From the IMG/VR virus record IMGVR_UViG_3300045988_159006, positions 1 to 40,811 of that record: a DNA stretch of 40,811 bases; one strand, given 5' to 3'. The notes beneath the pieces are model-generated. The model had not been told where the DNA came from. It was given only the letters and a program-made list of their open reading frames with translations, and did not search any database. Origin of the DNA: a virus. The translations under genes were made by a program, and so were the position numbers. This document shows, piece by piece, positions 1 through 40,811 of the stretch (its first letter is position 1; the number at the start of each line of letters is the position of its first letter).

Positions 1-29
1 CGTGCCTCCAGCAGGATTCGAACCCGCGA
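1..29 (-). repeat. att core, left copy (duplicated 3' end of a tRNA gene)
   Basis: cgtgcctccagcaggattcgaacccgcga is identical to 40783-40811. Its reverse complement gives T-arm GCGGG-TTCGAAT-CCTGC followed by acceptor strand TGGAGGC. The sequence to its right (30-90) cannot be folded as the rest of a tRNA, so this copy is only the fragment. Confidence 0.8.
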
Positions 30-68
30 TCAAAAACCCCACAACCAGCAAAAATACCAACAACACCC

Positions 69-1166
69 CTAGGCGCCACGACAATCCCACGACGCCTGCA
101 AAACCCCATCCATAGCACGCGCAACCTCATCCAAATCACCATCAAAAAGATCCGCATAAACATCCAACGTCATCGCCGCCGACGCATGCCCCAACTGCCT
201 TTGCACAACCTTCACACTCGCCCCAGAAGCCACCATCAACCCCGCAGCCACATGCCGCAACCCATGCGGCGTCACCCACGGAAAATCCGCATCAGCCCTC
301 ATAGCACGCTGCACCGCACCATAAAACCACCCATCATAACCAGGCACCCGCATAAACCCACCATCCGACTCCCTAGGCCACAACAGCGCATCCCTAGCCT
401 TCCCCTCCATCAACGGCACCAGCATCTGCATCACCCTACGCGGCACCGCCACCGTCCGCCGCTCATGATTCTTCGGCGGCCCCACATGCACCTCATACCC
501 CACAGTCACCGCATTACGAGTAATACTAAGCCGGCCCCTAGCCTCATTCACATCACACACTCGAAGCGCCACCGCCTCACCCCACCGCAAACCAGTCGTC
601 GCCAATACCCACACAAGCTCCTGGTAACGGCTACACTGATCCACTAAAAACTGCACCTGCTCCACCGTCAAATACACCTTCTTCGACTTAGCGCGCCGCG
701 GCAACCGCACACCCCGCGCCGGGTTCGCTTTCAACAGCCCGTCCAGCACCGCTAAATCCAACACCTGGGCCAGGCAAGCGTGGGCGTGCCGGACTGTGGC
801 AGCTGCACGATCAATGCCCGCCACCCATTCCTGCACATCACTAGGCCTCACCCCCATGATTGACACGCCACCCCACCTAGGTCGCACATGCACTCGCCAT
901 GATTGCTCGGTTGTCCGCATGGTTGACGGCTTCAAATGGGTTTGCATAGCAAGCCACCGATCCCCCAATTCACCCACCGTGATAGCTGTTTTTATTGGCG
1001 CCCGCCACTCCCCAGCATGGATATCCGTAGCATTCTTAGCCGACCAAGCCTCCGCCTCCGCCTTGGTGCGGAAACCCTGCTTCGTGCGCCCCCGACCATC
1101 AGGCGACCGGTACTGAACCCGCCACGCATACCCCCTCGCTGTTTTGTATTTACGAATCGACGCCAT
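69..1166 (-). CDS. int: Tyrosine recombinase / phage integrase with N-terminal AP2-like arm-binding domain
   Basis: 365 aa. The N-terminus (RGYAWRVQYRSPDGRGRTKQGFRTKAEAEAW) is typical of the phage integrase N-terminal DNA-binding domain. The C-terminal catalytic region reads HGLRHVAAG...GHASAAMTLDVYADLF (HxxR...Y). The gene abuts the att repeat. Confidence 0.92.
   Translation of the reverse strand: MASIRKYKTARGYAWRVQYRSPDGRGRTKQGFRTKAEAEAWSAKNATDIHAGEWRAPIKTAITVGELGDRWLAMQTHLKPSTMRTTEQSWRVHVRPRWGGVSIMGVRPSDVQEWVAGIDRAAATVRHAHACLAQVLDLAVLDGLLKANPARGVRLPRRAKSKKVYLTVEQVQFLVDQCSRYQELVWVLATTGLRWGEAVALRVCDVNEARGRLSITRNAVTVGYEVHVGPPKNHERRTVAVPRRVMQMLVPLMEGKARDALLWPRESDGGFMRVPGYDGWFYGAVQRAMRADADFPWVTPHGLRHVAAGLMVASGASVKVVQRQLGHASAAMTLDVYADLFDGDLDEVARAMDGVLQASWDCRGA
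76..93. repeat. Candidate integrase arm-type site pair (CCACGACAATCCCACGAC), left arm
   Basis: The same 18-mer recurs at 40660-40677 in the same orientation. It consists of two tandem CCCACGAC(A) units. Confidence 0.45.
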
Positions 1167-1231
1167 CTTTGTTCCCTTTTGCTCCTTGTTCCCGAAAAGG
1201 GCCCCACCAAATCAGCAAGGGCCACAAAAAT

Positions 1232-1261
1232 TTACAGGCTAGTTACAGGCCAATTACGGGC
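1232..1261. repeat. Three phased TTAC(A/G)GGC repeats in the int upstream region
   Basis: ttacaggc at 1232 and 1243, ttacgggc at 1254 (11-12 bp spacing). They lie between the stop of the HIRAN gene and the int start. caacattgtcca is also repeated at 1263-1274 and 1342-1353. Confidence 0.4.
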
Positions 1262-1354
1262 CCAACATTGTCCACACTAGCGTCCACCAATCACCACAGG
1301 TCAAACCGTAAAAACAGGGCAAACTGCCGCATTAACACCTGCAACATTGTCCAT

Positions 1355-2410
1355 TTAATACTCACTTAGCGTCGCTTCCACCATCGCATTATCTTTATCA
1401 ATAGGGGTCACTGTGCAAGTCCAATTCGTCCGCAACGTTGCGCCGAAAGCATTCTGGGCATCCACATGCCCGTGAATCGTCCAATCCTTATGGTCAGCGC
1501 TCTGCACCGCAATGAAATCGAAAAGCCCCTCAAACTTCGCAGTAGACGGCGATTTTAACTGCTGCTTAATCCGATCGTGGCACAAATAACGAGCCCGGTT
1601 ATCACTCCACCCCATGATCCGATCAGCATCATAAGGCTCACTACTCGGACTACTGTATTCCGGCGAAAGCGTCGAAATAACGTTACTATACGACGTTGGA
1701 TAGGCAATAGCCTTCTCACCAATCCCCAATGTTCGTCCCCAACTGCCTTGGCCCCAAAGCGCAAGCCCACATAAAACAACACCAATAATGATTGCTAAAT
1801 TACGCAGTGTAGAGCCATTAATACCATCATTATCCTTGGTTGTATTACCGGCCTTAACGCTTTCCGCACCAGCAGTTGGCTTCACCACTGCCGTATGCGC
1901 TACCGTGCCGGACGGTACCTTAGCCGGTTGGATCTTGCTTAGTGCTGCTGGTCGGGCGTACGCAGAAGGAGCAGGCTTCGATGGCTTCGGCGGGGTAATG
2001 ACTTTACCTTTCTTGTCCCCCCGGTAAGCGTTAGGCACGCTATACGAAGATGCTTTAGGCACTAACTGCACGTTAGGTGGAATTGCCGTGTCAGTAGCAA
2101 GAAGATACAAGTGCAAGTTAATGAACCCATACTCATCACGCTTATATCTGCCTTGAACAATGGCCGTTTTCCCACTAGCCGCAATCCGATTAATAAACGG
2201 CAAATACGTTGCCGTGCGACTTCGAGAAATATATCCAACGGTTTGCCCTCCGTACCGGATACTAATGGCATTAGGATCATACGGATTATCCGGCTCCGGT
2301 ACCACCTCGAACAACGTAGCGGTCTCAGGAACCCGAATATTTTCATAAAACTCGGTTCCAACAGCTTTCACAGTCGGACGCTGCGAAGCCTGAAGAAGTA
2401 TGGGCTCCAT
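1355..2410 (-). CDS. Membrane-anchored HIRAN-domain protein (HIRAN - Pro/Ala/Lys linker - TM helix - C-terminal domain)
   Basis: 351 aa. HIRAN hallmark VVPEPDNPYDPNAISIRYGGQTVGYISRSR near the N-terminus. Low-complexity linker, hydrophobic helix LAIIIGVVLCGLALWG, then a ~125-aa domain with ...HGHVDAQNAFGATLRTNWTCTV. GC looks lower than the flanks. Confidence 0.7.
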   Translation of the reverse strand: MEPILLQASQRPTVKAVGTEFYENIRVPETATLFEVVPEPDNPYDPNAISIRYGGQTVGYISRSRTATYLPFINRIAASGKTAIVQGRYKRDEYGFINLHLYLLATDTAIPPNVQLVPKASSYSVPNAYRGDKKGKVITPPKPSKPAPSAYARPAALSKIQPAKVPSGTVAHTAVVKPTAGAESVKAGNTTKDNDGINGSTLRNLAIIIGVVLCGLALWGQGSWGRTLGIGEKAIAYPTSYSNVISTLSPEYSSPSSEPYDADRIMGWSDNRARYLCHDRIKQQLKSPSTAKFEGLFDFIAVQSADHKDWTIHGHVDAQNAFGATLRTNWTCTVTPIDKDNAMVEATLSEY

Positions 2411-2521
2411 GGTCGCTAGCTCACACCCACCTTCGCGGCTAGGGTTTCAATGCTTTGCGTGATACTCACAGGGGGTTCCTTTGCAAATAGTGGAGATCAA
2501 TGCTTGGGATAAGAGTCAGGG

Positions 2522-2941
2522 TCAGCTGAGGCTGAGGCCGCATGCGCTTACATGCCGGGTACGACCTACGCGGTAAAGGCGCTCCCAGGTGCGCAGCAGG
2601 TGCACGGTAACACCTAACTCGGCGGCCATGGCTACGGGCTCGGAATCGCATTCCCACGCGGCTTCTTCTACCAGGCCATCATCTAGCAGCTGGTTAGCGG
2701 CCCATTCGTCGGCTTCACGTTCATTATCTGGTGTGGAGCAGTCATGATTGTGATACGCATGCCCTAACTCGTGGGCAACAGCGCATACCCGGGTTATCGG
2801 GTCCAACCCATGCCGGGTATAGATAGTGCGAGTCAGGGGATGCCAGCATGCATTCATGCGTGGGGTAAGCGCCCCCGTCTCGACAAGACGAACATCGAAC
2901 CGACGCAATAAAAATTCCAGCCGTTGTTCAGTATCATTCAT
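2522..2941 (-). CDS. ImmA/IrrE-family (COG2856) zinc metallopeptidase
   Basis: 139 aa with HELGH (HExxH) followed by EREADEWAA, the usual ImmA/IrrE signature. Located in the lysogeny block downstream of an HTH gene. Confidence 0.75.
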   Translation of the reverse strand: MNDTEQRLEFLLRRFDVRLVETGALTPRMNACWHPLTRTIYTRHGLDPITRVCAVAHELGHAYHNHDCSTPDNEREADEWAANQLLDDGLVEEAAWECDSEPVAMAAELGVTVHLLRTWERLYRVGRTRHVSACGLSLS

Positions 2942-3128
2942 AATGGCTCCTCAAAAACTGATAATGAACTTAATCAAGTATGAAACAAATTCATGCCAGA
3001 AGCAATAAATTTTGGCGAAAAAATATGTGTAATAAATCTCAAAAACAAGGAAACCAAGACATAATCGCGTATATCTAAACTAAAAACCCCCGATACTGCC
3101 TGCTCAAACCCTGTTTTCAGGGCTGTAA

Positions 3129-3230
3129 CAAGCATATCAGGGGTCTTCGGAGTTGAACCCCAGCAATCAAGCTCAGCAATAAGACTGCGGTCCAAGCATA
3201 TCAGGGGTTTTCGGAGTTGAACCCCAGCAA
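3129..3230 (-). repeat. Two 38-nt near-identical direct repeats separated by a unique 26-nt spacer (mini-array-like)
   Basis: 3129-3166 and 3193-3230 read caagcatatcaggggt[c/t]ttcggagttgaaccccagcaa, with one mismatch (3145 c vs 3209 t). The spacer is 3167-3192. Each repeat holds a GGGGTT/AACCCC hairpin. The single substitution is a U-A to U.G change on the minus strand but a C:A mismatch on the plus strand. Confidence 0.6.
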
Positions 3231-3256
3231 CCCCAACACCTCAGCTTTCGAATCTT

Positions 3257-3745
3257 TTATGTGAAATGCTCCTCAATGGGGGGAGTCGCCTGCTGCGCGG
3301 CTACTCGCTCCACGCCCGCATTAATCCGGGCAATAATCGCGTCATCATCAAAAACATCAACAGCAGGTTTGCGCTGGGTGCTTCGGATACCAACAGGCTT
3401 GTTTTCGGAGGGGATGTGCCTTACCGTCTGCTCCAATATATTAGATTCAGGAACAATTCGGCGCGCCAGTTCCAGCACTAGGGCGGCATCATCGGCGGTC
3501 TCCAGGAGCTGCCCCTCCGAATCCAGATACTCAAGCACGTCTTCATGCTTGATCCTGCCTAATTCAACCAGCGCCAAGGTTTGATTAATGCCTAGCTCAT
3601 CGCATAGCCGTATCAAATCATCTGATGGCAGCCCTTCATTCAAACGCTTGTTGGCGGTTTTACGTGTAACTCCAAGGATCGACGCGATTTCCTGATCCGT
3701 TATCCGCCTGTGTGCTGATTCGCTCAACCATCGCTTGATCTCCAT
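3257..3745 (-). CDS. HTH DNA-binding regulator, candidate immunity repressor / ImmR-like partner of the ImmA protease
   Basis: 162 aa. N-terminal HTH (ITDQEIASILGVTRKTANKRLNEG). Divergent from a Cro-like gene across an AT-rich 160-bp region. Confidence 0.6.
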   Translation of the reverse strand: MEIKRWLSESAHRRITDQEIASILGVTRKTANKRLNEGLPSDDLIRLCDELGINQTLALVELGRIKHEDVLEYLDSEGQLLETADDAALVLELARRIVPESNILEQTVRHIPSENKPVGIRSTQRKPAVDVFDDDAIIARINAGVERVAAQQATPPIEEHFT

Positions 3746-3905
3746 ACAAATATGCTATCACTCTGGGTAATATTTTACTCAGTGGGTGTGCTGGGGGCTG
3801 GGGATTTAGTTATTTGCCGCATTTATATGAGTAATGCACGTTGCTCACTAACGGCTAATTGTGTAAATTCGGTTACATATCAACGCAAAGAAAGCTAAAG
3901 AGGGA
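3746..3905. promoter_or_regulatory. Divergent promoter/operator region of the first genetic switch
   Basis: AT-rich intergenic region between divergent HTH genes. Inverted half-sites ttactca (about 3775) and tgagtaa (about 3829). Confidence 0.45.
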
Positions 3906-4112
3906 ATGTATTTACTCAATTTAAATGAGGTTGATCGAGTTAAAAGAATGCATCAAATAGCCTCAAATACTGCATTAGCAGAAAAAACACAAATTAGTAG
4001 AAAAACCTGGTCAAGCGCCCTGAACACCCGGAAACCCACTATCACGGTTTTGGACGCTCTTGCCGATTTGGGTGCCCGGCCTGACAAAATTCTCGTTTTG
4101 GATGGGGCCTGA
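3906..4112 (+). CDS. Cro/XRE-like small HTH regulator
   Basis: 68 aa with HTH IASNTALAEKTQISRKTWSSAL. First gene of the rightward early operon. Confidence 0.65.
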   Translation: MYLLNLNEVDRVKRMHQIASNTALAEKTQISRKTWSSALNTRKPTITVLDALADLGARPDKILVLDGA

Positions 4113-4140
4113 GTAGCCCCGGTTCGTCGTAAAGCCCAGT

Positions 4141-4170
4141 AAAAAGCAAAAACCCCGCTTCACAGCGGGG
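4141..4170 (-). terminator. Intrinsic terminator hairpin whose U-tract lies on the minus strand
   Basis: ccccgc(4153-4158)-ttcaca-gcgggg(4165-4170), preceded on the plus strand by aaaaagcaaaaa. Read on the minus strand this is hairpin + tttttgcttttt. Confidence 0.5.
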
Positions 4171-4204
4171 CGGAACAAGAAACGATAAAGAAAGTATAAC
4201 ACGA

Positions 4205-4600
4205 ATGCATTATTTATTTAAAGTGAAGGTTCCTGGCACCCCGAACACGGTCGATGCAACCCTGATTGATGGGCGAATCTGGATCGCACTGTCGTCAGTG
4301 TGTAACAGCCTGGGCATCCACCAGCCCACGCAGCAGGACCGCCTAAAACTCACGTGCTGGGCGAAGATCGAGCGGATCCCCCTGGTGACCGAACGCGGCC
4401 GAGAACAAACCATGTACGTGATCGACCGCCGCACACTAACCATGTGGCTGGCCACCCTAGGTGTTTACCGCAACAAGGCCACGCGGAAAACCCTGGAAGC
4501 CTACCAAATGAACATCGACGACGTCCTAGACCGACTCCAACAAGGCCTGCGTGGGGAGAAAAACTACCCCACCGCACCACTAGCAGAGAAGGCGCAGTAA
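4205..4600 (+). CDS. P22 antirepressor N-terminal-domain-like protein
   Basis: 131 aa. The pattern IDGRIWIALSSVCNSLGI...QTMYVIDRRTLTMWLATL...LEAYQ resembles the P22_AR N-terminal domain. Confidence 0.5.
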   Translation: MHYLFKVKVPGTPNTVDATLIDGRIWIALSSVCNSLGIHQPTQQDRLKLTCWAKIERIPLVTERGREQTMYVIDRRTLTMWLATLGVYRNKATRKTLEAYQMNIDDVLDRLQQGLRGEKNYPTAPLAEKAQ

Positions 4601-4602
4601 GC

Positions 4603-4860
4603 ATGAGCCGCTGTAAAACCCCCGCATCTAAACGCCGCCGCCCGCGCCGGGAGGGGGAGTGGTTGACACTGCCGGAGGCCGCTGCATATACGAAGATTCA
4701 CCGCCAAACTCTGCGGGTGCTGCTGCTGAGTGGAGAGATCCCCTACAGCCGGAAAACCGCCCGCCCGCGCTCCCCATACCTGATCGAGCGTGAGCATTTG
4801 GACAGCTATCTTGCCCGGGTGAGTGATGATTGCCGTACCGCTGCTGGGGGAGTCGCCTAA
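4603..4860 (+). CDS. Excisionase-type / MerR-like HTH DNA-binding protein
   Basis: ATG at 4603 inside ORF 4354-4860. WLTLPEAAAYTKIHRQTLRVLLLSGEIPY is the typical Xis-family HTH. The upstream part of the ORF overlaps the previous gene. Confidence 0.6.
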   Translation: MSRCKTPASKRRRPRREGEWLTLPEAAAYTKIHRQTLRVLLLSGEIPYSRKTARPRSPYLIEREHLDSYLARVSDDCRTAAGGVA

Positions 4861-4983
4861 TGCCCAGGTACGGCACCGCAGTTATCGGCGATATGGACGA
4901 GGCAGTCGAAATCGCACTCCAGCAAGCTCGCGGTTTCATGCGTGAGCGCTCCTAAAACCTCTAAACCAGAAAGGAAACAAAGA

Positions 4984-5238
4984 ATGTCTGCTACCCCGTA
5001 TAGCACTGATCCGTACTACGACCCATATGAAGAGCTGGACCGGCGGTTTGACTATCGGGTTTTGGATGATGAAACCCGGGCGCTGCGGATCGCTGTGGGC
5101 CGACAGTTTAAGAATTTCGCCAGGAATCTGGAGGCAATGCTCGATGACAGCAGGGAGAAAAACCTGGCCTTAGAGCGGCTGGAGGAGGCGATGATGTGGG
5201 CGAATGCCTCGCTGGCCCGCGGTGCTGAGACCAGCTAG
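4984..5238 (+). CDS. Hypothetical protein
   Basis: ATG at 4984 preceded by gaaaggaaa. 84 aa with helical character. The ORF-track start at 4942 is a GTG without an RBS. Confidence 0.55.
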   Translation: MSATPYSTDPYYDPYEELDRRFDYRVLDDETRALRIAVGRQFKNFARNLEAMLDDSREKNLALERLEEAMMWANASLARGAETS

Positions 5239-5618
5239 CGGGATTAAGGATAGCCCTGGCCTGGTAGGCCGCCCCAAAGGGTGTGGGGGGTTCGATTCCC
5301 CCGGAGGGTGCTAGGCCCCAGCGTGGGGCGTGTTGTATAGCGAACTCGATAGTGGAAACACCTTAAGATGCCCTCCCTCTGTGGGGGAGGGCCAAGTCTA
5401 ACAGGGGCCTGATGTTTGGGCTCCTGTCAGGTTCATGCTCCGGTGAGGTAAAACCAGACTGCTTGTTGGTTTCGTGTTTGGTCAAGATATTGGTTGGTTT
5501 TACGCGGGTTCAACCCCCGCCATGAGCGCTACCCGCCTAACTAGCCGGGCGGGAACCTGGTGCCCCGTGGTCTTCCTCAGCCACGGGGCACCCCAAAACA
5601 GAAGTTAAGGAGTAGCCA
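5239..5618 (+). ncRNA. Candidate structured RNA region with two tRNA/tmRNA-like T-arm hairpins
   Basis: No credible ORF over 380 nt. T-arm-like GGGGG-TTCGATT-CCCCC (5286-5302) and GCGGG-TTCAACC-CCCGC (5504-5520). The second stacks on a 7-bp acceptor-like helix (5431-5437 with 5521-5527). There are at least five further hairpins, including a 12-bp stem at 5559-5592. Confidence 0.3.
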
Positions 5619-5936
5619 ATGACGAAGCTCAGCTACTTGGAAGAGGATGCTGCCCTGATTGTGGAGAACCTGCCGGAAGGGTTCGAAGCAACAGCCGAGG
5701 CGGCACCGCTTTTCCTGATCTACGCGGTGCTGATGCGTGCTAAAGGCATCTACACGACGCTGGAAGACGTCCACGATGCGTGGGCTGCTTGGCGCACCAC
5801 CACCAACCCAAACCATAGCGATTTAGTGCCCTTCGGCCAGCTTGATGCAGAAACCAGGTCGTTGGATCGCCCGTTCCTTCACGCAATCCATGCGGCAGCC
5901 CACATCCGAAACAGCCAAACCGAAAAGGAGTCATAA
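5619..5936 (+). CDS. Hypothetical protein
   Basis: 105 aa. RBS aaggag lies 7 nt upstream of the ATG. Confidence 0.6.
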   Translation: MTKLSYLEEDAALIVENLPEGFEATAEAAPLFLIYAVLMRAKGIYTTLEDVHDAWAAWRTTTNPNHSDLVPFGQLDAETRSLDRPFLHAIHAAAHIRNSQTEKES

Positions 5937-5937
5937 A

Positions 5938-6201
5938 ATGAATCCCGCATTTGTCATCTCAATGGTAGCGATAGCTATTTCTCTCACCGCCCTGGGCGTT
6001 TCAATCAGTGCCCACATGGCCGCCCGCGACTGCCGCAGGGTGACCGTGATGTTCATGACCACGGTGATGGAGTACCTGGATGGGGATGGCCAGGTAGGGG
6101 TTTGCGTGAAAAAAATCACTGGTGCCGCTGCTGATGCTGATGGTGATAAAAAACCAAATGATCGGGTGGTAAAGCGTCTCCGAGATGACCACAACCGCTA
6201 A
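5938..6201 (+). CDS. Small membrane protein
   Basis: ATG at 5938 after aaaaggag. N-terminal TM helix FVISMVAIAISLTALGVSI. Confidence 0.55.
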   Translation: MNPAFVISMVAIAISLTALGVSISAHMAARDCRRVTVMFMTTVMEYLDGDGQVGVCVKKITGAAADADGDKKPNDRVVKRLRDDHNR

Positions 6202-6481
6202 AACCACCAGCCGGCAACAGCGGCCGCTCACCCCTGACGGTATTCTCCTCGCCCCGTGCCATCAGGTGCTCCTCCCGTTTTGGGATGGGCGCCTGTACAT
6301 GGAGAAGGAAGAGATGATGCTGGCCCGCCATGAACAGGCAAAGTATCTTTGCCGCCAATGCCCGCTGCTAGAGGCATGCGGCCGCTACCTGGAGCGCATG
6401 GAAGAACAACGAATGCCCGTTGACGGGGTAGTAGCCGGCCGGTATTACACGCCGAAAAAACGCCGCCGGCGTAAAAAATAG
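6185..6481 (+). CDS. whiB: WhiB-family (Wbl) Fe-S transcription factor
   Basis: 98 aa. Cys pattern C..(n)..CRQCPLLEAC and a basic C-terminal tail (KKRRRRKK), as in actinophage WhiB-like proteins. Confidence 0.75.
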   Translation: MTTTAKTTSRQQRPLTPDGILLAPCHQVLLPFWDGRLYMEKEEMMLARHEQAKYLCRQCPLLEACGRYLERMEEQRMPVDGVVAGRYYTPKKRRRRKK

Positions 6482-6489
6482 TCGCACAC

Positions 6490-6526
6490 CTGCTAAGGGG
6501 ATCGAGTTTTTCGATACCCTTAGCAG
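6490..6526 (+). terminator. Long hairpin (15 of 16 bp paired) downstream of whiB
   Basis: ctgctaaggggatcga-gtttt-tcgatacccttagcag. No U-tract follows, so it may be a factor-independent I-shaped terminator or a protein-binding palindrome. Confidence 0.35.
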
Positions 6527-6558
6527 ACTCAAAACCGCAACAAGTGGCGCCCCAGATA

Positions 6559-6583
6559 GGGGGGTGATTATTAATCACCCCCC
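6559..6583. promoter_or_regulatory. Perfect 25-bp palindrome (12-bp arms) immediately upstream of the Bro antirepressor gene
   Basis: ggggggtgatta-t-taatcacccccc, ending 17 nt before the ATG at 6601. Confidence 0.5.
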
Positions 6584-6600
6584 AAGATTAAGGACTGCAA

Positions 6601-7410
6601 ATGGACAACAAGATCACACCATTCACATTCAACGATATCGAGGTGCGGGTTATTACCCGCGGCGGTGTCCCTTGGTGGGTTGCCGCCGATGTGGCCCACG
6701 CACTGGGGTACCGTGACGCGGGCAGGATAACCCGGTACGTGCGAGACCATCAAAAGGGGTCACAAAAATTGTGTACCCTTGGCGGCTCACAAGAGCTGCA
6801 GGTCATCAATGAGGCTGGCCTATACATGGCTATCATGAAATCCCATTCCCCACATGCCGAGAAGTTTCAGGATTGGGTGACCGAAGAAGTTTTGCCGGCG
6901 ATTCGGTCGCATGGTGGTTATCTCACCCCGGAGGCGACAGCCCAAGCGCTGTCTGACCCGGATTTCATTATCCGCTTGGCCACGCAGTTGAAGGAGGAGC
7001 GGGCCCAGCGTTTGGAGTTGGAAACCCGGGTGGAAGAAGCCGCGCCCAAGGTGATTTTTGCTGATGCTGTGAGCGCATCGACCACCTCGATCCTGGTAGG
7101 GGATTTGGCGAAGATCCTCAAAGGCAACTGTATTGATATTGGTGCTAACCGGCTCTTCACCTGGCTGCGGGCCCATGGATACCTCACCTCCCGCCGTGGT
7201 GCTGATTGGAACAGCCCCACCCAGAAAGCCATGGAATTAGGTCTCTTCGAGATTAAAGAAACCGTCATCACCCACGCCGATGGGCATATCACGGTTAACA
7301 AAACGCCGAAAGTCACGGGTAAAGGCCAACAATATTTTGTTGCTCGTTTCCTTGACGGCCGGTTCGATATCAACGACACAGGCGTCACAGTGACGAAACA
7401 AGGAGTATAA
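6601..7410 (+). CDS. Bro-N / KilAC-domain phage antirepressor
   Basis: 269 aa. Bro-N motif FTFNDIEVRVITRGGVPWWVAADVAHALGY. C-terminal KilAC/ANT-like region ILVGDLAKIL...ANRLFTWLRAHGYL. Confidence 0.8.
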   Translation: MDNKITPFTFNDIEVRVITRGGVPWWVAADVAHALGYRDAGRITRYVRDHQKGSQKLCTLGGSQELQVINEAGLYMAIMKSHSPHAEKFQDWVTEEVLPAIRSHGGYLTPEATAQALSDPDFIIRLATQLKEERAQRLELETRVEEAAPKVIFADAVSASTTSILVGDLAKILKGNCIDIGANRLFTWLRAHGYLTSRRGADWNSPTQKAMELGLFEIKETVITHADGHITVNKTPKVTGKGQQYFVARFLDGRFDINDTGVTVTKQGV

Positions 7411-7414
7411 AGGA

Positions 7415-7591
7415 ATGACCACGAGCACCCCCACCTACGAATCCCGCCTAGCACTACGATCCCTCCGCAGGCACGCCGCAGGCAAAAAGACCGGGCGGGC
7501 TGGGGTACGGGCCATGGAAGCCCTTGGATACGTCACCGAGGACGGCACTATCACCCCGGCCGGCAACCACGCCCTACACGGCGAAAAATAG
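7415..7591 (+). CDS. Small hypothetical protein (58 aa, below ORF-track cutoff)
   Basis: ATG at 7415 preceded by aaggagtataaagga. The frame is open to TAG at 7589-7591 and fills the gap between flanking genes. Confidence 0.4.
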   Translation: MTTSTPTYESRLALRSLRRHAAGKKTGRAGVRAMEALGYVTEDGTITPAGNHALHGEK

Positions 7592-7600
7592 GCGGTACCT

Positions 7601-7843
7601 ATGATAAAGCACCCGGAAATCCGTGATGCCCTCTACGAAAATGAGAAAAACAAACTCCGGCTCGAAATGAAACGCGAACGCCTCCAGGCGGCTAACCGCT
7701 GCTGCGCGCTGGAAGCCACCGGATACCACCCGCACCAGCAAATACATATTTGCGCCAGGCGCAGCGGGCACCGCGGCGGCCACCACGACTACGACACCGG
7801 ATTCCACTGGAAATGGGACAAAGAAGAAGGAACAACGAAATGA
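7601..7843 (+). CDS. Hypothetical protein
   Basis: 80 aa. Its stop overlaps the next start (ATGA at 7840-7843). Confidence 0.5.
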   Translation: MIKHPEIRDALYENEKNKLRLEMKRERLQAANRCCALEATGYHPHQQIHICARRSGHRGGHHDYDTGFHWKWDKEEGTTK

Positions 7844-8274
7844 CACACCCCTCAATCCAGCAAATGCTAGACAACCTGAAGTATCTCCGGGAAGAAACAA
7901 CCCTCCTAGATGAGAAGGATGAAAAACACCTACGGGTGGTGTCCCGCTGGATAGATTTCCTGCTAGACGATACCGACTACCAAGAGATGCGAAACCAGCC
8001 TGAACTCCTAGACAAACCCGACGACTATGGGACGCTCGTGACGTTCCTTCCTGCCCTGCCAGGGATCGGAGAAGGATCAAAATACATTATCGAGATCAGC
8101 CATCAAGGACCCGACGATATCACCATCACCATCAGTGACGACTGCCAGTATGGCACCTGCAAAATCACGCAGAAAAACCTCTACCAGCTAGCCCGAATGG
8201 CGCTAGTCATCCTCCTACAGACGGAAAACCTTAAAACCAGAGAATGGAACAAAAATGAACGCCCCGGCAAATAG
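7840..8274 (+). CDS. Hypothetical protein, paralog A of a tandem pair
   Basis: ATG at 7840 in ORF 7750-8274. Shares ...H(Q/C)GPD(D/Y)I...IT(Q/R)..LY(Q/R)LA...L..L with the next gene. Confidence 0.55.
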   Translation: MTHPSIQQMLDNLKYLREETTLLDEKDEKHLRVVSRWIDFLLDDTDYQEMRNQPELLDKPDDYGTLVTFLPALPGIGEGSKYIIEISHQGPDDITITISDDCQYGTCKITQKNLYQLARMALVILLQTENLKTREWNKNERPGK

Positions 8275-8641
8275 CCTAGCGCCGATGCTGGAGGCCATCG
8301 GCCGGCTCAAAAAATACGCCCCCTCAGAGCCCTTGGACCGCCAAGACATCAACACGATCATTGATACAATCGAGGCTCTGACCGACAGCCCAACCTACCA
8401 GCCAACAGACAGCGTAGGATACGGCAGGCTCGACGAAGAAGGCTACAGGGACGGGCTCTTAGTGCTACAAAATGGCGCACTGCAGGGATTCGTGATGGTT
8501 GACCACTGCGGCCCTGACTATATCATCCTGAGGACGGAAACTAAGCGAGATGCCCACCACATCACCCGGGATCAGCTCTACCGGCTAGCCGCCGGTGTCC
8601 TCACGGTACTAGCACACGTCGATTACCCCGACCAAAAATAA
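8255..8641 (+). CDS. Hypothetical protein, paralog B of a tandem pair
   Basis: 128 aa. VDHCGPDYIILRTETKRDAHHITRDQLYRLAAGVLTVLAH aligns with ISHQGPDDITITISDDCQYGTCKITQKNLYQLARMALVILLQ of the preceding gene. Confidence 0.55.
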   Translation: MNAPANSLAPMLEAIGRLKKYAPSEPLDRQDINTIIDTIEALTDSPTYQPTDSVGYGRLDEEGYRDGLLVLQNGALQGFVMVDHCGPDYIILRTETKRDAHHITRDQLYRLAAGVLTVLAHVDYPDQK

Positions 8642-8676
8642 GTAGAACAAACTTTCCAATCTGCGGATTATTTTGC

Positions 8677-9111
8677 TTACCCTGCGTACAAAGGGTCATG
8701 TCGCCCAGCTAGCTCCGTAGCTTCGAGGAGCAACCGTTCTGATACCCCGGCGCGCCGGGCTTTGGTGATGGTGGCGCCAAGCTCGGTTTTGGCCTGTTCG
8801 TGTGCTTCTGTGGCTTGTTTGAGTGCCCTTGAGGTTTCTTGGAAGGCTACAAGGCTATCGCTTACTGCTGCTAAGTGCTTGTTTGATGCGGCGTCGAGTG
8901 TCAACAGTTCGACGGGAATGCCCAGTGTTTCGGCTATTTTCATCGCCTCCGCCAACCTCGGTTCCCGTTCTCCGGCTTCGATACGCCGAAGTACAGTCAT
9001 GTGCATTTTGAGCCCATTTGCTTCTAGTCGTCGTCGCATTTCTAGTTGCGACCAGCCGGCTTTTTGCCTGAATTGGGCGAGATTTTGCCCAAAAATGTTC
9101 GATTCCGCCAT
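8677..9111 (-). CDS. XRE-family HTH repressor-like protein with helical C-terminal domain
   Basis: HTH LAQFRQKAGWSQLEMRRRL...LRRIEAGEREP. The ATG at 9111 is preferred over the TTG at 9135 because a TTGAAC-17-TATGAT promoter ends 6 nt upstream of it. Confidence 0.7.
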   Translation of the reverse strand: MAESNIFGQNLAQFRQKAGWSQLEMRRRLEANGLKMHMTVLRRIEAGEREPRLAEAMKIAETLGIPVELLTLDAASNKHLAAVSDSLVAFQETSRALKQATEAHEQAKTELGATITKARRAGVSERLLLEATELAGRHDPLYAG

Positions 9112-11315: not shown

Positions 11316-11638
11316 TGTGTACGTTGTTAGACGAAAAAACCCGGCGCGCCCGTAAACCACACGAGTGCGATATGTGCGGGGCAACAATCAACCTTGGTGA
11401 GGAATACCGCTGGGAAAAATATGTAAACTGCGATGGCCTGTATGAGCTGAAAACCTGCCTAGCCTGCGACGTGGCCTTCTCCGAAGTATGGGACTACGTG
11501 CCTGACTGGTGGGATGGGGGTGTCACTTTCGAGGACTACCAAGAATGGGCGACCGACCCCGATTACGATGACACCCCCGCCAAGCAGGCCTGGCGTCAGC
11601 GTGCCGGCTACACCAGAGAAGACGAGACCTTCAAATGA
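11315..11638 (+). CDS. Cys-rich hypothetical protein (zinc-ribbon-like)
   Basis: 107 aa with HECDMCG...CLAC. Start and stop are coupled to the neighbouring genes. Confidence 0.55.
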   Translation: MCTLLDEKTRRARKPHECDMCGATINLGEEYRWEKYVNCDGLYELKTCLACDVAFSEVWDYVPDWWDGGVTFEDYQEWATDPDYDDTPAKQAWRQRAGYTREDETFK

Positions 11639-12129
11639 TCCTCGATGTTACTTGCGGTGCCAGGCTCATGTGGCACAACAAACACCACCCCGATGTGATC
11701 TACGCCGACCAGCGGACGACGCAACACCAGCTATCAGATGGCCGGGAAATCACCATCAACCCGAACATTCGGCTCGACTACCGCGCCCTGCCCTTCCGTG
11801 ACAACACATTCCACCTCATCAACCTAGACCCACCCCACCTCCAGCGCGCCGGGGCGACTGGGTGGATGTGCCAGAAGTATGGGGTTCTCATGACCACGTG
11901 GAGGGAAGACCTGCGCCAGTGCTTCGTTGAGTGTTTCCGGGTGCTTGCCCCGGGCGGCACGCTCACCCTCAAGTGGAATCAAGTCCACATCCCGCTACGG
12001 GAGGTACTGGAGCTAGCCCCATACCCGCCCCTGTATGGCACCCGCCACGGCAAAAACAATGCTACGTCTTTTACGGTTTTCCATAAACCAATGGGATCAG
12101 GAGGTTTTCGAGTTGAACCCCAGCCCTGA
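11635..12129 (+). CDS. Small SAM-dependent DNA methyltransferase (DPPH motif IV)
   Basis: 164 aa. ILDVTCGARLMW (motif I-like) and LINLDPPHL (D-P-P-H/Y catalytic motif of N6-A/N4-C methyltransferases). Confidence 0.65.
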   Translation: MILDVTCGARLMWHNKHHPDVIYADQRTTQHQLSDGREITINPNIRLDYRALPFRDNTFHLINLDPPHLQRAGATGWMCQKYGVLMTTWREDLRQCFVECFRVLAPGGTLTLKWNQVHIPLREVLELAPYPPLYGTRHGKNNATSFTVFHKPMGSGGFRVEPQP

Positions 12130-40782: not shown

Positions 40783-40811
40783 CGTGCCTCCAGCAGGATT
40801 CGAACCCGCGA
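40783..40811 (-). tRNA. 3' end of a minus-strand tRNA gene continuing beyond the right window edge; att core, right copy
   Basis: Identical to 1-29. The reverse complement gives T-arm + acceptor strand TGGAGGC + A. The rest of the gene would lie outside the window, so the isotype cannot be read. Confidence 0.5.

What the first reader, a model, noticed from the sequence alone, without database searches (positions are those of the whole stretch)
3129..3230. Minimal CRISPR-array-like unit: two 38-nt repeats around a 26-nt unique spacer, in the lysogeny transcript
3129-3166 and 3193-3230 differ at one base and flank 26 nt of unique sequence. This repeat-spacer-repeat geometry has a repeat length typical of type II arrays. 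There are no cas genes in the window. Each repeat contains a GGGGUU/AACCCC hairpin, and the only substitution keeps pairing as U.G on the minus strand (the strand of the surrounding lysogeny genes) but not on the plus strand. That weakly argues for a minus-strand RNA. Read on the minus strand the repeat begins UUGCUGGGGUUCAAC.... From memory, crRNA repeats of Corynebacterium-type II-C Cas9 begin ACUGGGGUUCAG, which must be verified. Phage-borne mini-arrays used against competitors and solitary repeat units acting as RNA anti-CRISPRs are known phenomena, so either role is conceivable. Alternatives are tandem attenuator hairpins or a protein-binding repeat.
Basis: partly seen in the sequence, partly recalled or inferred. 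Interest (0 to 1): 0.7.

Follow-up and report, generated by a model that had tools for sequence, protein, structure and literature searches.

The report
Prophage mini-CRISPR array borrowing host Cas9
A virus integrated in the chromosome of a mouth-dwelling Corynebacterium carries a tiny CRISPR array (two repeats, one spacer) copied from its host's Cas9 system, and its spacer matches rival relatives of the virus, so it most likely uses the host's Cas9 to keep competitors out; this kind of system is already known, and this is a clear Cas9-based example.

Summary
The repeat-spacer-repeat unit is real. Its true geometry is 36-nt repeats around a 28-nt spacer, read on the minus strand.

- **Location.** It lies between the prophage repressor and an ImmA-like protease gene. 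The window is a complete prophage integrated in tRNA-Arg, 2.3 kb from the cas9 gene of an uncultured oral Corynebacterium.
- **Host array.** The host's type II-C array has the same 64-nt period and a repeat 31/36 (33/36 in a MAG) identical to the phage repeat. The 15 nt that pair with the predicted host tracrRNA are identical. About 49 nt next to the last phage repeat are homologous to the host leader.
- **Relatives.** Related prophages carry 1, 2 or 3 repeats at this site, with two different spacers.
- **Targets.** The window's spacer has 0-3-mismatch protospacers in 16 related phage contigs and none in its own genome. Thirteen phage-borne spacers share a 3' flank of NNNCAY (C at position 4 in 13/13). 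Other phages carry spacers with perfect matches to this window, including its repressor gene.

Best explanation: a prophage-borne mini-array that loads host Cas9 to exclude related phages. This is a new member of a known kind (viral mini-arrays). No expression or interference data exist.

The parts
3193..3228 (-). CRISPR repeat 1, upstream in crRNA orientation: GCTGGGGTTCAACTCCGAAAACCCCTGATATGCTTG
   Evidence: It is 31/36 identical to the host repeat beside cas9 and 33/36 to the Corynebacterium MAG repeat. Nt 1-15 pair with the predicted host tracrRNA anti-repeat.
3195..3203 (-). Predicted repeat-embedded extended -10 promoter, TGATATGCT (TGnTAnnnT). It would start transcription a few nt into the spacer. 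The same box lies in repeat 2 at 3131-3139.
   Evidence: across 40 repeat variants G27, T29, A30 and T34 are invariant and T26 is 93% conserved, while the three 'n' positions vary. Repeat-embedded promoters are documented for type II-C arrays of N. meningitidis and C. jejuni (PMC5965381). The generic sigma-70 scan did not flag it. This part is an inference.
3165..3192 (-). Spacer S1: GACCGCAGTCTTATTGCTGAGCTTGATT (28 nt)
   Evidence: Protospacers with 0-3 mismatches occur in 16 related phage contigs, always followed by CCCCAT. The window holds no other copy at up to 7 mismatches.
3129..3164 (-). CRISPR repeat 2, next to the leader-like flank. It has G instead of A at repeat nt 20.
3080..3128 (-). 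Leader-like flank: TTACAGCCCTGAAAACAGGGTTTGAGCAGGCAGTATCGGGGGTTTTTAG
   Evidence: It aligns with the cas2-to-array leader of the host loci L002 and L018 (alignment A1). A related flank follows the mini-arrays at the other phage sites.
3229..3256 (-). Upstream flank of the array. It ends in GGGGTT, like the flank of the host array's distal degenerate repeat.
3257..3745 (-). Prophage repressor gene, immediately upstream and on the same strand as the array
   Evidence: phrog_19097 transcriptional repressor, E = 4e-26. It holds two protospacers (3670-3697, 3712-3739) perfectly matched by spacers of phages L039 and L040.
2522..2941 (-). ImmA/IrrE-like metalloprotease gene, downstream and on the same strand
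   Evidence: PF06114, E = 5.6e-6; phrog_87, E = 3e-18.
12089..12124 (-). Degenerate solitary repeat (site D): GCTGGGGTTCAACTCGAAAACCTCCTGATCCCATTG. It has no -10 box and no leader-like flank.
   Evidence: It overlaps the last 12 codons of the plus-strand ORF 11635-12129.
1..33 (.). att core repeat, equal to the 3' end of tRNA-Arg(TCT). Its partner is at 40783-40811. Together they bound the prophage.
   Evidence: The tRNA lies 2.3 kb upstream of cas9 in the host (L046).
40783..40811 (.). Second att core repeat

Best explanation
The element is a prophage-borne type II-C CRISPR mini-array (repeat, 28-nt spacer, repeat, leader-like flank). It was derived from the cas-proximal end of a Corynebacterium host array and sits in the lysogeny gene block.

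**Proposed mechanism.** In the lysogen it is transcribed on the minus strand, probably from the extended -10 box inside repeat 1 and possibly also by read-through from the repressor gene. That gives a crRNA made of about 22-24 nt of spacer S1 plus the 5' part of repeat 2. The first 15 nt of the repeat pair with the host tracrRNA, and the duplex loads into the host's CdCas9-like Cas9. The complex then cuts incoming related phages that carry the S1 protospacer followed by an NNNCAY PAM, in an early-region ORF that this prophage lacks. The result is CRISPR-based exclusion of rival phages, which also protects the host cell.

**Shown here.**
- Homology of repeat, period and flank to the host array.
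- Variation in repeat number and spacer among relatives.
- Protospacers in relatives and none in the window itself.
- A shared PAM.
- Reciprocal targeting among phages.
- An intact cas9 ORF and a predicted tracrRNA beside the prophage.

**Inferred.** Transcription, the promoter, loading into Cas9, cleavage, and use of the leader-like flank for spacer acquisition.
For: 1. **Homology to the host array.**
   - The host array next to cas9 in lysogen contigs has period 64 and repeat CAAGTATATCAAGGGATTTGAGAGTTGAACCCCAGC, 31/36 identical to the phage repeat.
   - A Corynebacterium MAG with tracrRNA-cas9-cas1-cas2 and 15 repeats has a repeat 33/36 identical.
   - The 49-nt flank aligns with the host leader.
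2. **Array-like variation.** Ten prophages with an identical repressor carry 1, 2 or 3 repeats at this site in 64-nt steps, with two unrelated spacers. L008 reads R-S1-R-S2-R.
3. **Targets.**
   - S1 has protospacers at 0-3 mismatches in 16 related viral contigs outside arrays.
   - No copy occurs elsewhere in the window, nor in the held parts of the other S1 carriers.
4. **PAM.** For 13 phage-borne spacers with non-self protospacers, 3' flank position 4 is C in 13/13 (p = 3.5e-8), position 5 is A in 11/13, and position 6 is Y in 13/13. The 5' flank shows no signal. The repeat itself starts GCTGGG, which is not a PAM.
5. **Compatibility with host RNA and protein.**
   - A predicted tracrRNA lies just upstream of cas9. 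It is identical in the lysogen host and the MAG, and has an anti-repeat and a terminator.
   - Phage repeat to anti-repeat cofold is -28.2 kcal/mol, against -31.8 for the host repeat and -17 +/- 2 for shuffles.
   - Of 39 repeat variants, 37 keep at least 13 of 16 pairs with the anti-repeat.
   - The cas9 ORF is uninterrupted in three lysogens.
   - The closest solved structure is CdCas9, 6JOO.
6. **Conservation pattern of the repeat.** Nt 1-15 and the TGnTAnnnT box are conserved, and nt 16-17 vary freely.
7. **Reciprocal targeting.** Spacers of L013, L039 and L040 match the window perfectly with PAM.
Against: - There is no RNA or interference data, so expression, processing and cleavage are all inferred.
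- The generic sigma-70 scan did not call a promoter in the repeats.
- The phage repeat differs from the lysogen host's repeat at 5 of 36 positions. All 5 lie outside the first 15 nt, and their effect is untested.
- Six of the ten closest relatives have only a solitary repeat and therefore no canonical guide.
- In the lysogen hosts cas1-cas2 are deleted, so acquisition cannot occur there. In one lysogen (L005) cas9 is called as two ORFs.
- None of 37 chromosomal host spacers matches this phage family, so host-mediated immunity against these phages is not demonstrated.
- The second spacer, S2, has no target in the viral collection.
- The tracrRNA has no Rfam support.
Confidence: 0.75

Rival explanations
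1. RNA anti-CRISPR or decoy (Racr-like). The repeat RNA mimics host crRNA repeats, pairs with the tracrRNA and occupies Cas9. That would lower host immunity against the phage or prophage itself, and the spacer would be incidental.
For: - Solitary repeats are the commonest state at this site in the closest relatives (6 of 10).
- Further solitary repeats exist elsewhere in these phages, including window 12089-12124.
- The phage repeat keeps the tracr-pairing 15 nt but diverges in the middle.
- Phage RNAs that sequester or redirect Cas9 are reported in preprint 10.64898/2026.06.01.729453.
Against: - The window's unit has a full 28-nt spacer with perfect, PAM-flanked targets in rival phages.
- 13 of 15 phage-borne spacers have such targets with one shared PAM. 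That pattern is expected for working guides, not decoys.
- The solitary repeats at sites A to C retain the leader-like flank, as empty arrays would.
- The lysogen hosts hold only two spacers, neither of which matches the phage, so there is little immunity to suppress there.
Confidence: 0.12
2. Regulatory crRNA-like RNA (crlRNA, scaRNA or tracr-L type). A guide from the element directs Cas9, through partial complementarity, to repress cas9 or the tracrRNA promoter, another defence gene, or a phage gene.
For: - The array lies in the lysogeny block, 28 nt after the repressor stop codon.
- The prophage sits 2.3 kb from cas9.
- Phage crRNA-like RNAs that silence host immunity are reported (10.1101/2024.10.29.618823; 10.64898/2026.06.01.729453).
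Against: - Seeds of 9-12 nt from S0 (the 28 nt upstream of repeat 1), S1 and S2 were searched in the cas9, tracrRNA and array regions of four host loci. The only hit was a single 9-nt match of S0 (13/28, flank TCTGCT, not a PAM), and it lies outside the cas9 promoter.
- S1 matches its phage targets over all 28 nt. That predicts cleavage rather than repression.
Confidence: 0.04
3. Inert relic. A piece of a host CRISPR array was captured by illegitimate recombination and is carried passively, or serves only as a recombination junction between phage modules.
For: - Repeats occur at several module junctions in the early region.
- One of them (site D) is clearly decaying inside a coding sequence.
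- Adaptation genes are deleted in the lysogen hosts.
Against: - The repeat shows position-specific conservation across 40 variants: the tracr-pairing part and the TGnTAnnnT box are conserved while the middle varies freely.
- Spacers turn over between near-identical prophages.
- The PAM is consistent.
- No carrier holds a PAM-flanked perfect match to its own spacer. The one perfect self-match (L044) has a mutated PAM, and the other two self-hits (L008, L009) carry 2 mismatches.
Confidence: 0.06
4. Non-CRISPR repeat: tandem attenuator hairpins, or operator or protein-binding repeats of the immunity region.
For: - The element lies between the repressor and ImmA genes.
- Each repeat can form a 6-bp hairpin.
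Against: - Repeat, period and flank are homologous to a cas9-linked array.
- The hairpin shows no covariation, and its z-score is -0.3.
- The sequence between the repeats is replaced wholesale between relatives and matches other phages.
Confidence: 0.02

Closest known systems
Virus-borne mini-CRISPR arrays of Saccharolobus portogloboviruses SPV1 and SPV2 (Medvedeva et al. 2019, PMC6858448)
   Same: - Arrays have 1-2 spacers and no viral cas genes.
- Repeats and leader resemble those of the host.
- Spacers target closely related viruses but not the carrier.
- Targeting is reciprocal.
- Stand-alone repeats occur in the same genomes.
- The element is interpreted as heterotypic superinfection exclusion.
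   Different: - Those are archaeal, non-lytic viruses that use host type I/III machinery.
- Here the carrier is a temperate bacterial phage using a Cas9 (II-C) effector that also needs a host tracrRNA.
- Here the promoter is apparently inside the repeat rather than in the leader.
- Competition was tested experimentally there, and nothing has been tested here.
Mini-arrays and solitary repeat units in bacteriophage and prophage genomes (the comparative-genomics survey described in PMC6858448 and PMC11656645, which I take from memory to be Faure et al. 2019; modelled in PMC7099407)
   Same: - Phage or prophage mini-arrays have host-like repeats.
- Most spacers are directed at related phages, often at nearby genes that the carrier lacks.
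   Different: - PMC6858448 states that those phage mini-arrays lack leader regions. The present units keep about 49 nt homologous to the host leader.
- I could not check whether that survey already lists Corynebacterium or type II-C cases.
CRISPR arrays inside Clostridioides difficile prophages (type I-B; Hargreaves et al. 2014, PMC4173771)
   Same: Prophage-located arrays depend on chromosomal cas genes, and their spacers target other phages of the same host species.
   Different: - Those are type I-B. From memory (the paper's text was not opened here), they are usually longer arrays.
- No tracrRNA is required there.
- No repeat-embedded promoter is involved there.
Type II-C CRISPR-Cas of Corynebacterium diphtheriae (CdCas9, PDB 6JOO, PMC6488586) and of Neisseria meningitidis (repeat-embedded promoters, PMC5965381)
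   Same: - The host Cas9's best solved relative is 6JOO.
- The repeat starts GCTGGGG, against ACTGGGG in C. diphtheriae.
- The host locus is cas9-cas1-cas2 followed by an array transcribed towards cas2.
- PAM positions 4-6 are non-G in both (NNNCAY against NNRHHHY).
- A TGnTAnnnT box lies at the 3' end of each repeat, as in the Neisseria model.
   Different: - The array is on a phage, not in the cas locus.
- The inferred PAM is narrower at positions 4-5 and shows no R at position 3.
- Promoter activity has not been measured.
RNA anti-CRISPRs (Racr, PMC10651486) and viral sgRNA/scaRNA (bioRxiv 10.64898/2026.06.01.729453)
   Same: These are phage-encoded RNAs that mimic CRISPR repeats or guides and engage host Cas proteins. 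The solitary repeats in relatives and at window 12089-12124 resemble solitary repeat units.
   Different: - The window's unit has a full spacer with cleavage-competent targets.
- It has no fused tracrRNA part.
- It has no match to the cas9 promoter.

Membership tests
CRISPR array (type II-C, Corynebacterium/CdCas9-like) | Direct repeats of constant length separated by unique spacers of constant length | tested here: met
   36-nt repeats and a 28-nt spacer give a period of 64. Relatives have 1-3 repeats at the same period.
CRISPR array (type II-C, Corynebacterium/CdCas9-like) | Repeat homologous to the repeat of a cas-linked array in the host | tested here: met
   31/36 identical to the array beside cas9 in the lysogen chromosome, and 33/36 to the MAG array beside cas9-cas1-cas2.
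CRISPR array (type II-C, Corynebacterium/CdCas9-like) | 5' part of the repeat complementary to a tracrRNA anti-repeat | tested here: met
   Repeat nt 1-15 pair with the predicted anti-repeat upstream of cas9, at -28.2 kcal/mol against -17 +/- 2 for shuffles. The tracrRNA itself is predicted only, with no Rfam hit.
CRISPR array (type II-C, Corynebacterium/CdCas9-like) | Spacers match foreign DNA next to a consistent PAM on the 3' side | tested here: met
   The flank is NNNCAY, with C at position 4 in 13/13 (p = 3.5e-8). The 5' flank shows no signal.
CRISPR array (type II-C, Corynebacterium/CdCas9-like) | Transcription and maturation into crRNA bound by Cas9 | not testable with these tools
   No RNA data are available. 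There is only a conserved TGnTAnnnT box in the repeat and the type II-C precedent.
Virus-borne mini-CRISPR array for inter-virus conflict | Located in a viral genome, with 1-2 spacers and no viral cas genes | tested here: met
   The window is a complete prophage bounded by att repeats. No cas gene appeared in the ORF reading of window 1-8000 or among the Pfam-annotated genes of the relatives' loci; the rest of the window was not scanned.
Virus-borne mini-CRISPR array for inter-virus conflict | Spacer targets related viruses and not the carrier | tested here: met
   S1 has targets in 16 related contigs at 0-3 mismatches. The window holds no other copy at up to 7 mismatches.
Virus-borne mini-CRISPR array for inter-virus conflict | Host encodes a matching effector | tested here: met
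   An uninterrupted 1089-aa cas9 ORF and a predicted tracrRNA lie 2.3 kb from the prophage in L002, L007 and L008.
Virus-borne mini-CRISPR array for inter-virus conflict | Demonstrated exclusion of the targeted virus | not testable with these tools
   This requires infection or transformation assays.
RNA anti-CRISPR (Racr) / solitary repeat unit | A solitary repeat without a functional spacer that inhibits the cognate Cas complex | tested here: not met
   The window's site A unit has two repeats and a targeting spacer. The copy at 12089-12124 and the single-repeat relatives would fit the 'solitary' criterion. Inhibition is untestable here.
Viral sgRNA / scaRNA / crlRNA repressing cas9 | A guide with partial complementarity and PAM at the cas9 or tracrRNA promoter, and for vsgRNA a fused tracr scaffold | tested here: not met
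   No PAM-flanked seed match of S0, S1 or S2 was found in four host loci. The window holds no anti-repeat or tracr-like scaffold apart from the three repeat copies.

The most novel reading that the evidence does not exclude
In this oral Corynebacterium lineage the chromosomal CRISPR locus may have become adaptation-dead: cas1-cas2 are deleted and only two spacers remain. Its Cas9 and tracrRNA would then be kept mainly as a shared weapon that resident prophages program.

The phages carry portable 'repeat plus leader' cassettes with their own promoters at up to three or four genomic sites. They would refill these cassettes in hosts that still have Cas1-Cas2, and use them in a reciprocal war. That war includes hits on each other's immunity repressors, which would kill or cure rival lysogens.

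The prophage's integration site, 2.3 kb from cas9, would then be part of a co-adapted phage-Cas9 unit rather than a coincidence.
Probability: 0.25. Interest if true: 0.75.

Novelty: new member of a known kind. Interest (0 to 1): 0.55.

Why it matters
Viral mini-arrays that hijack host CRISPR effectors have been tested experimentally essentially only in archaeal viruses. For bacteriophages the evidence is mostly a bioinformatic catalogue.

This locus offers a compact, Cas9-based natural example in a human oral bacterium, with every component identifiable:
- the effector (Cas9);
- a predicted tracrRNA;
- a leader-like flank;
- an inferred PAM;
- the targets;
- reciprocal targeting among dozens of co-circulating phages.

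Several questions become directly testable:
- whether prophages can program Cas9 for superinfection exclusion;
- whether phage arrays acquire spacers through a retained leader;
- whether such prophage use helps explain why Cas9 is retained after the adaptation genes are lost.

It also gives an inferred PAM (NNNCAY) for an uncharacterised CdCas9 relative.

Tried and rejected
- **Rfam.** No family reached its gathering score anywhere in the window. Only chance-level hits fell around the element. The predicted tracrRNA has no Rfam match.
- **tRNA-remnant idea for GGTTCAACTCC.** ARAGORN finds no tRNA in the window. The real tRNA-derived sequence is the att core at the window ends.
- **Exact 25-nt phage repeat in one genome per species.** No hit. 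A degenerate pattern was needed.
- **Megablast of window 1-8000 against GenBank phages.** No hit.
- **Spacer S2** (not in the window). No protospacer in IMG/VR.
- **Host chromosomal spacers.** 37 spacers from L018, L048 and L049 have no match at up to 4 mismatches in the window or the phage loci. They therefore could not give an independent PAM check.
- **Cas9 autorepression model.** No PAM-flanked seed match was found.
- **Intra-repeat hairpin.** No covariation, and no excess stability.
- **Generic promoter and terminator scan.** Nothing was flagged in the array. The promoter proposal rests on the conservation pattern instead.
- **Coding strand of the S1 target ORF.** Pfam, PHROGs and GC by codon position did not resolve it.
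- **Literature string search for the repeat sequence.** Nothing relevant was found.
Full report
**1. The observation**

Window 3129-3166 and 3193-3230 are a 38-nt direct repeat with one mismatch and 64-nt start-to-start spacing. No other copy exists at up to 3 mismatches, and no dinucleotide shuffle produced one.

The pair lies in the 316-nt gap between two minus-strand genes:
- a phage repressor at 3257-3745 (phrog_19097, E = 4e-26);
- an ImmA/IrrE-like metalloprotease at 2522-2941 (PF06114; phrog_87).

Rfam and ARAGORN find nothing there.

**2. Relatives show it behaves as an array**

A look-up of the exact repressor protein returned ten contigs from human oral metagenomes carrying near-identical prophages. 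Their repressor-to-ImmA gap is 250/252, 316 or 380 nt, which is steps of 64. The gap holds one repeat in six contigs (L001, L003, L004, L007, L009, L010), two in three (L002, L005, L006; the window also has two) and three in one (L008).

Read on the strand of the lysogeny genes, the conserved unit is 36 nt: GCTGGGGTTCAACTCCGAAAACCCCTGATATGCTTG. The intervening 28 nt come in two unrelated versions:
- S1, GACCGCAGTCTTATTGCTGAGCTTGATT, in the window, L005, L008 and L015;
- S2, TGCTTCGGCGGTGCGTTTCGACATTTGC, in L002, L006 and L008.

The two extra matching bases are coincidental, because they differ in L002.

**3. The host has the matching system, right next door**

The window is a complete prophage. 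Its ends (1-33 and 40783-40811) repeat the 3' end of a tRNA-Arg(TCT) gene. In the host chromosome that tRNA lies 2.3 kb upstream of a 1089-aa cas9.

The closest solved relative of this Cas9 is 6JOO (E = 0, 1275 bits), followed by 4OGC. 6JOO is Corynebacterium diphtheriae Cas9, and its paper gives the spacer-flanking repeat as ACTGGGG and the PAM as NNRHHHY (PMC6488586).

Downstream of cas9 the lysogen hosts have a short array. It has period 64 and repeat CAAGTATATCAAGGGATTTGAGAGTTGAACCCCAGC, 31/36 identical to the phage repeat. A shortened, degenerate third repeat follows.

A degenerate repeat pattern hit one genome among one per species. It is an uncultured Corynebacterium sp. MAG with tracrRNA, cas9, cas1 (cas1_NMENI), cas2 and 15 repeats, and its repeat is 33/36 identical. 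That is a type II-C architecture. A Cas9-based search again returned only Corynebacterium MAGs.

In the lysogen hosts an 827-bp deletion has removed most of cas1 and cas2, while the cas9 ORF is uninterrupted.

**4. The flanks are homologous too**

The 49 nt after the last phage repeat are TTACAGCCCTGAAAACAGGGTTTGAGCAGGCAGTATCGGGGGTTTTTAG (window 3128->3080). They align with the sequence between cas2 and the first repeat of both host loci (alignment A1). The other side shares the ...GGGGTT junction.

Related flanks follow the mini-arrays at the other sites in these phages. The phage unit is thus a copy of the cas-proximal end of a host array, leader included. According to PMC6858448, previously catalogued bacteriophage mini-arrays lack leaders.

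**5. Compatibility with the host RNA machinery**

Just upstream of cas9, identical in the lysogen host and the MAG, lies ...GCAGAGTTGAACCTCAGTAAGTGTCGGCTAG...GCCGACGGACTTACCTCCGTCGGCTTTCTTTTT. It comprises an anti-repeat, a nexus-like segment and a terminator hairpin, so it is a predicted tracrRNA. It has no Rfam match.

The first 15 nt of the repeat are identical in host and phage, and they form the duplex:

| Repeat | Cofold with anti-repeat (kcal/mol) |
|---|---|
| Phage | -28.2 |
| Host | -31.8 |
| Shuffled | -17 +/- 2 |

. The CdCas9 sgRNA needs only a 12-bp repeat:anti-repeat duplex.

Across 40 repeat variants from phages and hosts the conservation pattern is position-specific:
- nt 1-15 are conserved;
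- nt 16-17 vary freely;
- at the 3' end G27, T29, A30 and T34 are invariant and T26 is 93% conserved, while nt 31-33 vary. This is the signature of an extended -10 box, TGnTAnnnT.

Repeat-embedded promoters that start crRNAs inside the spacer are documented for type II-C arrays of N. meningitidis and C. jejuni (PMC5965381). By analogy, transcription from repeat 1 would start about 4-6 nt into S1 and leave a 22-24-nt guide. CdCas9 works best with 22 nt. This step is inferred, and the generic sigma-70 scan did not flag it.

**6. What the spacer targets**

The 3' 22 nt of S1 occur exactly in seven IMG/VR contigs. One of them, L015, is the same array. The other six are non-array sites in related phages.

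With mismatches allowed, 16 related contigs carry the protospacer at 0-3 mismatches, always followed by CCCCAT. The site lies in an uncharacterised ORF of about 200 aa between the immunity switch and the P22_AR_N-like gene (L012 4706-5344). The window lacks this segment. The window has no other S1-like sequence at up to 7 mismatches.

**7. A family-wide pattern with a PAM**

Thirty-one viral contigs carry the repeat. Related phages hold mini-arrays or solitary repeats at up to four sites.

Of 15 phage-borne spacers of 27-29 nt, 13 have non-self protospacers at up to 2 mismatches in other members of the family. The 3' flanks give:

| 3' flank position | Base | Count | p |
|---|---|---|---|
| 4 | C | 13/13 | 3.5e-8 |
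| 5 | A | 11/13 | 6.7e-6 |
| 6 | Y | 13/13 | not computed |

The 5' flank shows no signal. The inferred PAM, NNNCAY, is compatible at positions 4-6 with CdCas9's non-G preference. The repeat start, GCTGGG, is not a PAM.

One phage (L044) has a perfect self-match, but there the flank reads CCATAT instead of CCACAT.

The window is itself targeted. Spacers of L013 match 6711-6738 and 8973-9000 perfectly. Spacers of L039 and L040 match 3670-3697 and 3712-3739, inside the repressor gene. Of these four sites, 3670-3697, 3712-3739 and 8973-9000 carry consensus-type flanks, while 6711-6738 has TACCCC (C-C-C at positions 4-6). Several more spacers match with 1-3 mismatches.

**8. Interpretation**

The best explanation is a prophage-borne type II-C mini-array that uses host Cas9 and tracrRNA to exclude related phages. 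This matches the 'virus-borne mini-array / interviral conflict' model (PMC6858448, PMC7099407, PMC11656645). It also recalls the prophage arrays of C. difficile (PMC4173771).

Rivals:
- **Racr-like decoy role** (PMC10651486). It cannot be excluded, particularly for single-repeat relatives and for the degenerate copy at 12089-12124. It does not explain PAM-flanked full-length targets.
- **Regulatory guide against cas9** (preprints seen). It finds no seed match.
- **Attenuator or operator repeats.** The homology makes these unlikely.

**9. Limits**

All functional steps are inferred: transcription, loading, cleavage and acquisition. None of 37 chromosomal host spacers matches these phages, so the PAM rests on phage-borne spacers only. 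Most related loci are partial contigs. The held literature library may lack a prior description of these particular phages.

**10. Verdict**

The element is a new, well-resolved member of a known class. Several features deserve follow-up:
- dependence on Cas9 and a tracrRNA;
- a retained leader-like flank;
- likely repeat-embedded promoters;
- cassettes at several sites in one phage genome;
- reciprocal hits on immunity repressors;
- integration beside a cas9 locus that has lost cas1-cas2.

Noticed in passing
window 12089-12124 (-): This is a third, degenerate CRISPR repeat. It matches 28/36 with the first 15 nt perfect, has lost the -10 box, and has no leader-like flank. On the plus strand it supplies the last 12 codons (MGSGGFRVEPQP*) of ORF 11635-12129, so that mRNA carries a perfect 15-nt anti-repeat. 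It is conserved in many relatives at a junction between variable modules. It could be a decaying array, a recombination scar, or a crRNA sponge.
   Followed up: partly
window 1-33 and 40783-40811; L046 7634-7707: The window is a complete prophage bounded by 29-33-bp att repeats equal to the 3' end of tRNA-Arg(TCT). In the host this tRNA lies only 2.3 kb upstream of cas9, so the prophage sits beside the CRISPR-Cas locus it appears to exploit.
   Followed up: yes
L002 19353-19800, compared with L018 3628-4966: The lysogen hosts L002 (aligned), L005 and L008 (inferred from the same gene layout) carry an 827-bp deletion that fuses the start of cas1 to the end of cas2. The cas9 ORF (uninterrupted in L002 and L008, split in L005), the predicted tracrRNA and a 2-3-repeat array remain. 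The locus is adaptation-dead but apparently still competent for interference.
   Followed up: partly
window 3670-3697, 3712-3739, 6711-6738, 8973-9000 (also 8829-8856, 6813-6840, 6730-6757, 3315-3342): These are protospacers in the window matched by spacers carried by other phages of the family (L039, L040, L013, L011, L025, L028, L019). The first four are perfect matches; three of them have NNNCAY-type flanks and 6711-6738 has TACCCC. Two of the four lie in the repressor gene, so a rival phage could direct Cas9 at this prophage's immunity gene.
   Followed up: partly
L002 19838-19865; L046 8405-8432; L002 14473-14500; window 31937-31964: The host's own spacer H1 matches 25/28 the Rv2525c-like glycoside-hydrolase gene that lies between the tRNA and cas9 in the MAG. 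It matches its own genome's copy at only 21/28, and also matches a site in the window at 21/28. It may derive from a phage lysin-like homologue, or be a diverged self-target.
   Followed up: partly
L044 2342-2369: A phage carries a spacer with a perfect match in its own genome. The flank there reads CCATAT, whereas all other phages have CCACAT. This looks like a PAM escape that permits carrying the spacer, and it independently points to C at PAM position 4.
   Followed up: partly
L008 7006-7105, L011 3515-3678, L001 8791-8826 and others (absent from the window): Related phages have further 'repeat(s) plus leader-like flank' cassettes. One site is upstream of the Bro-N/ANT gene (site B) and one is a solitary site C. 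L039 and L040 have an array at the repressor's 3' end in inverted orientation.
   Followed up: partly
L001-L010 at about 8100-8680 (homologous to the window's early region near 5000-5240): The phage family encodes an 84-aa protein with an Acb2/Tad1-hairpin Pfam hit (PF24729). It is a candidate anti-CBASS/anti-Thoeris sponge, in the early region close to the mini-arrays.
   Followed up: no
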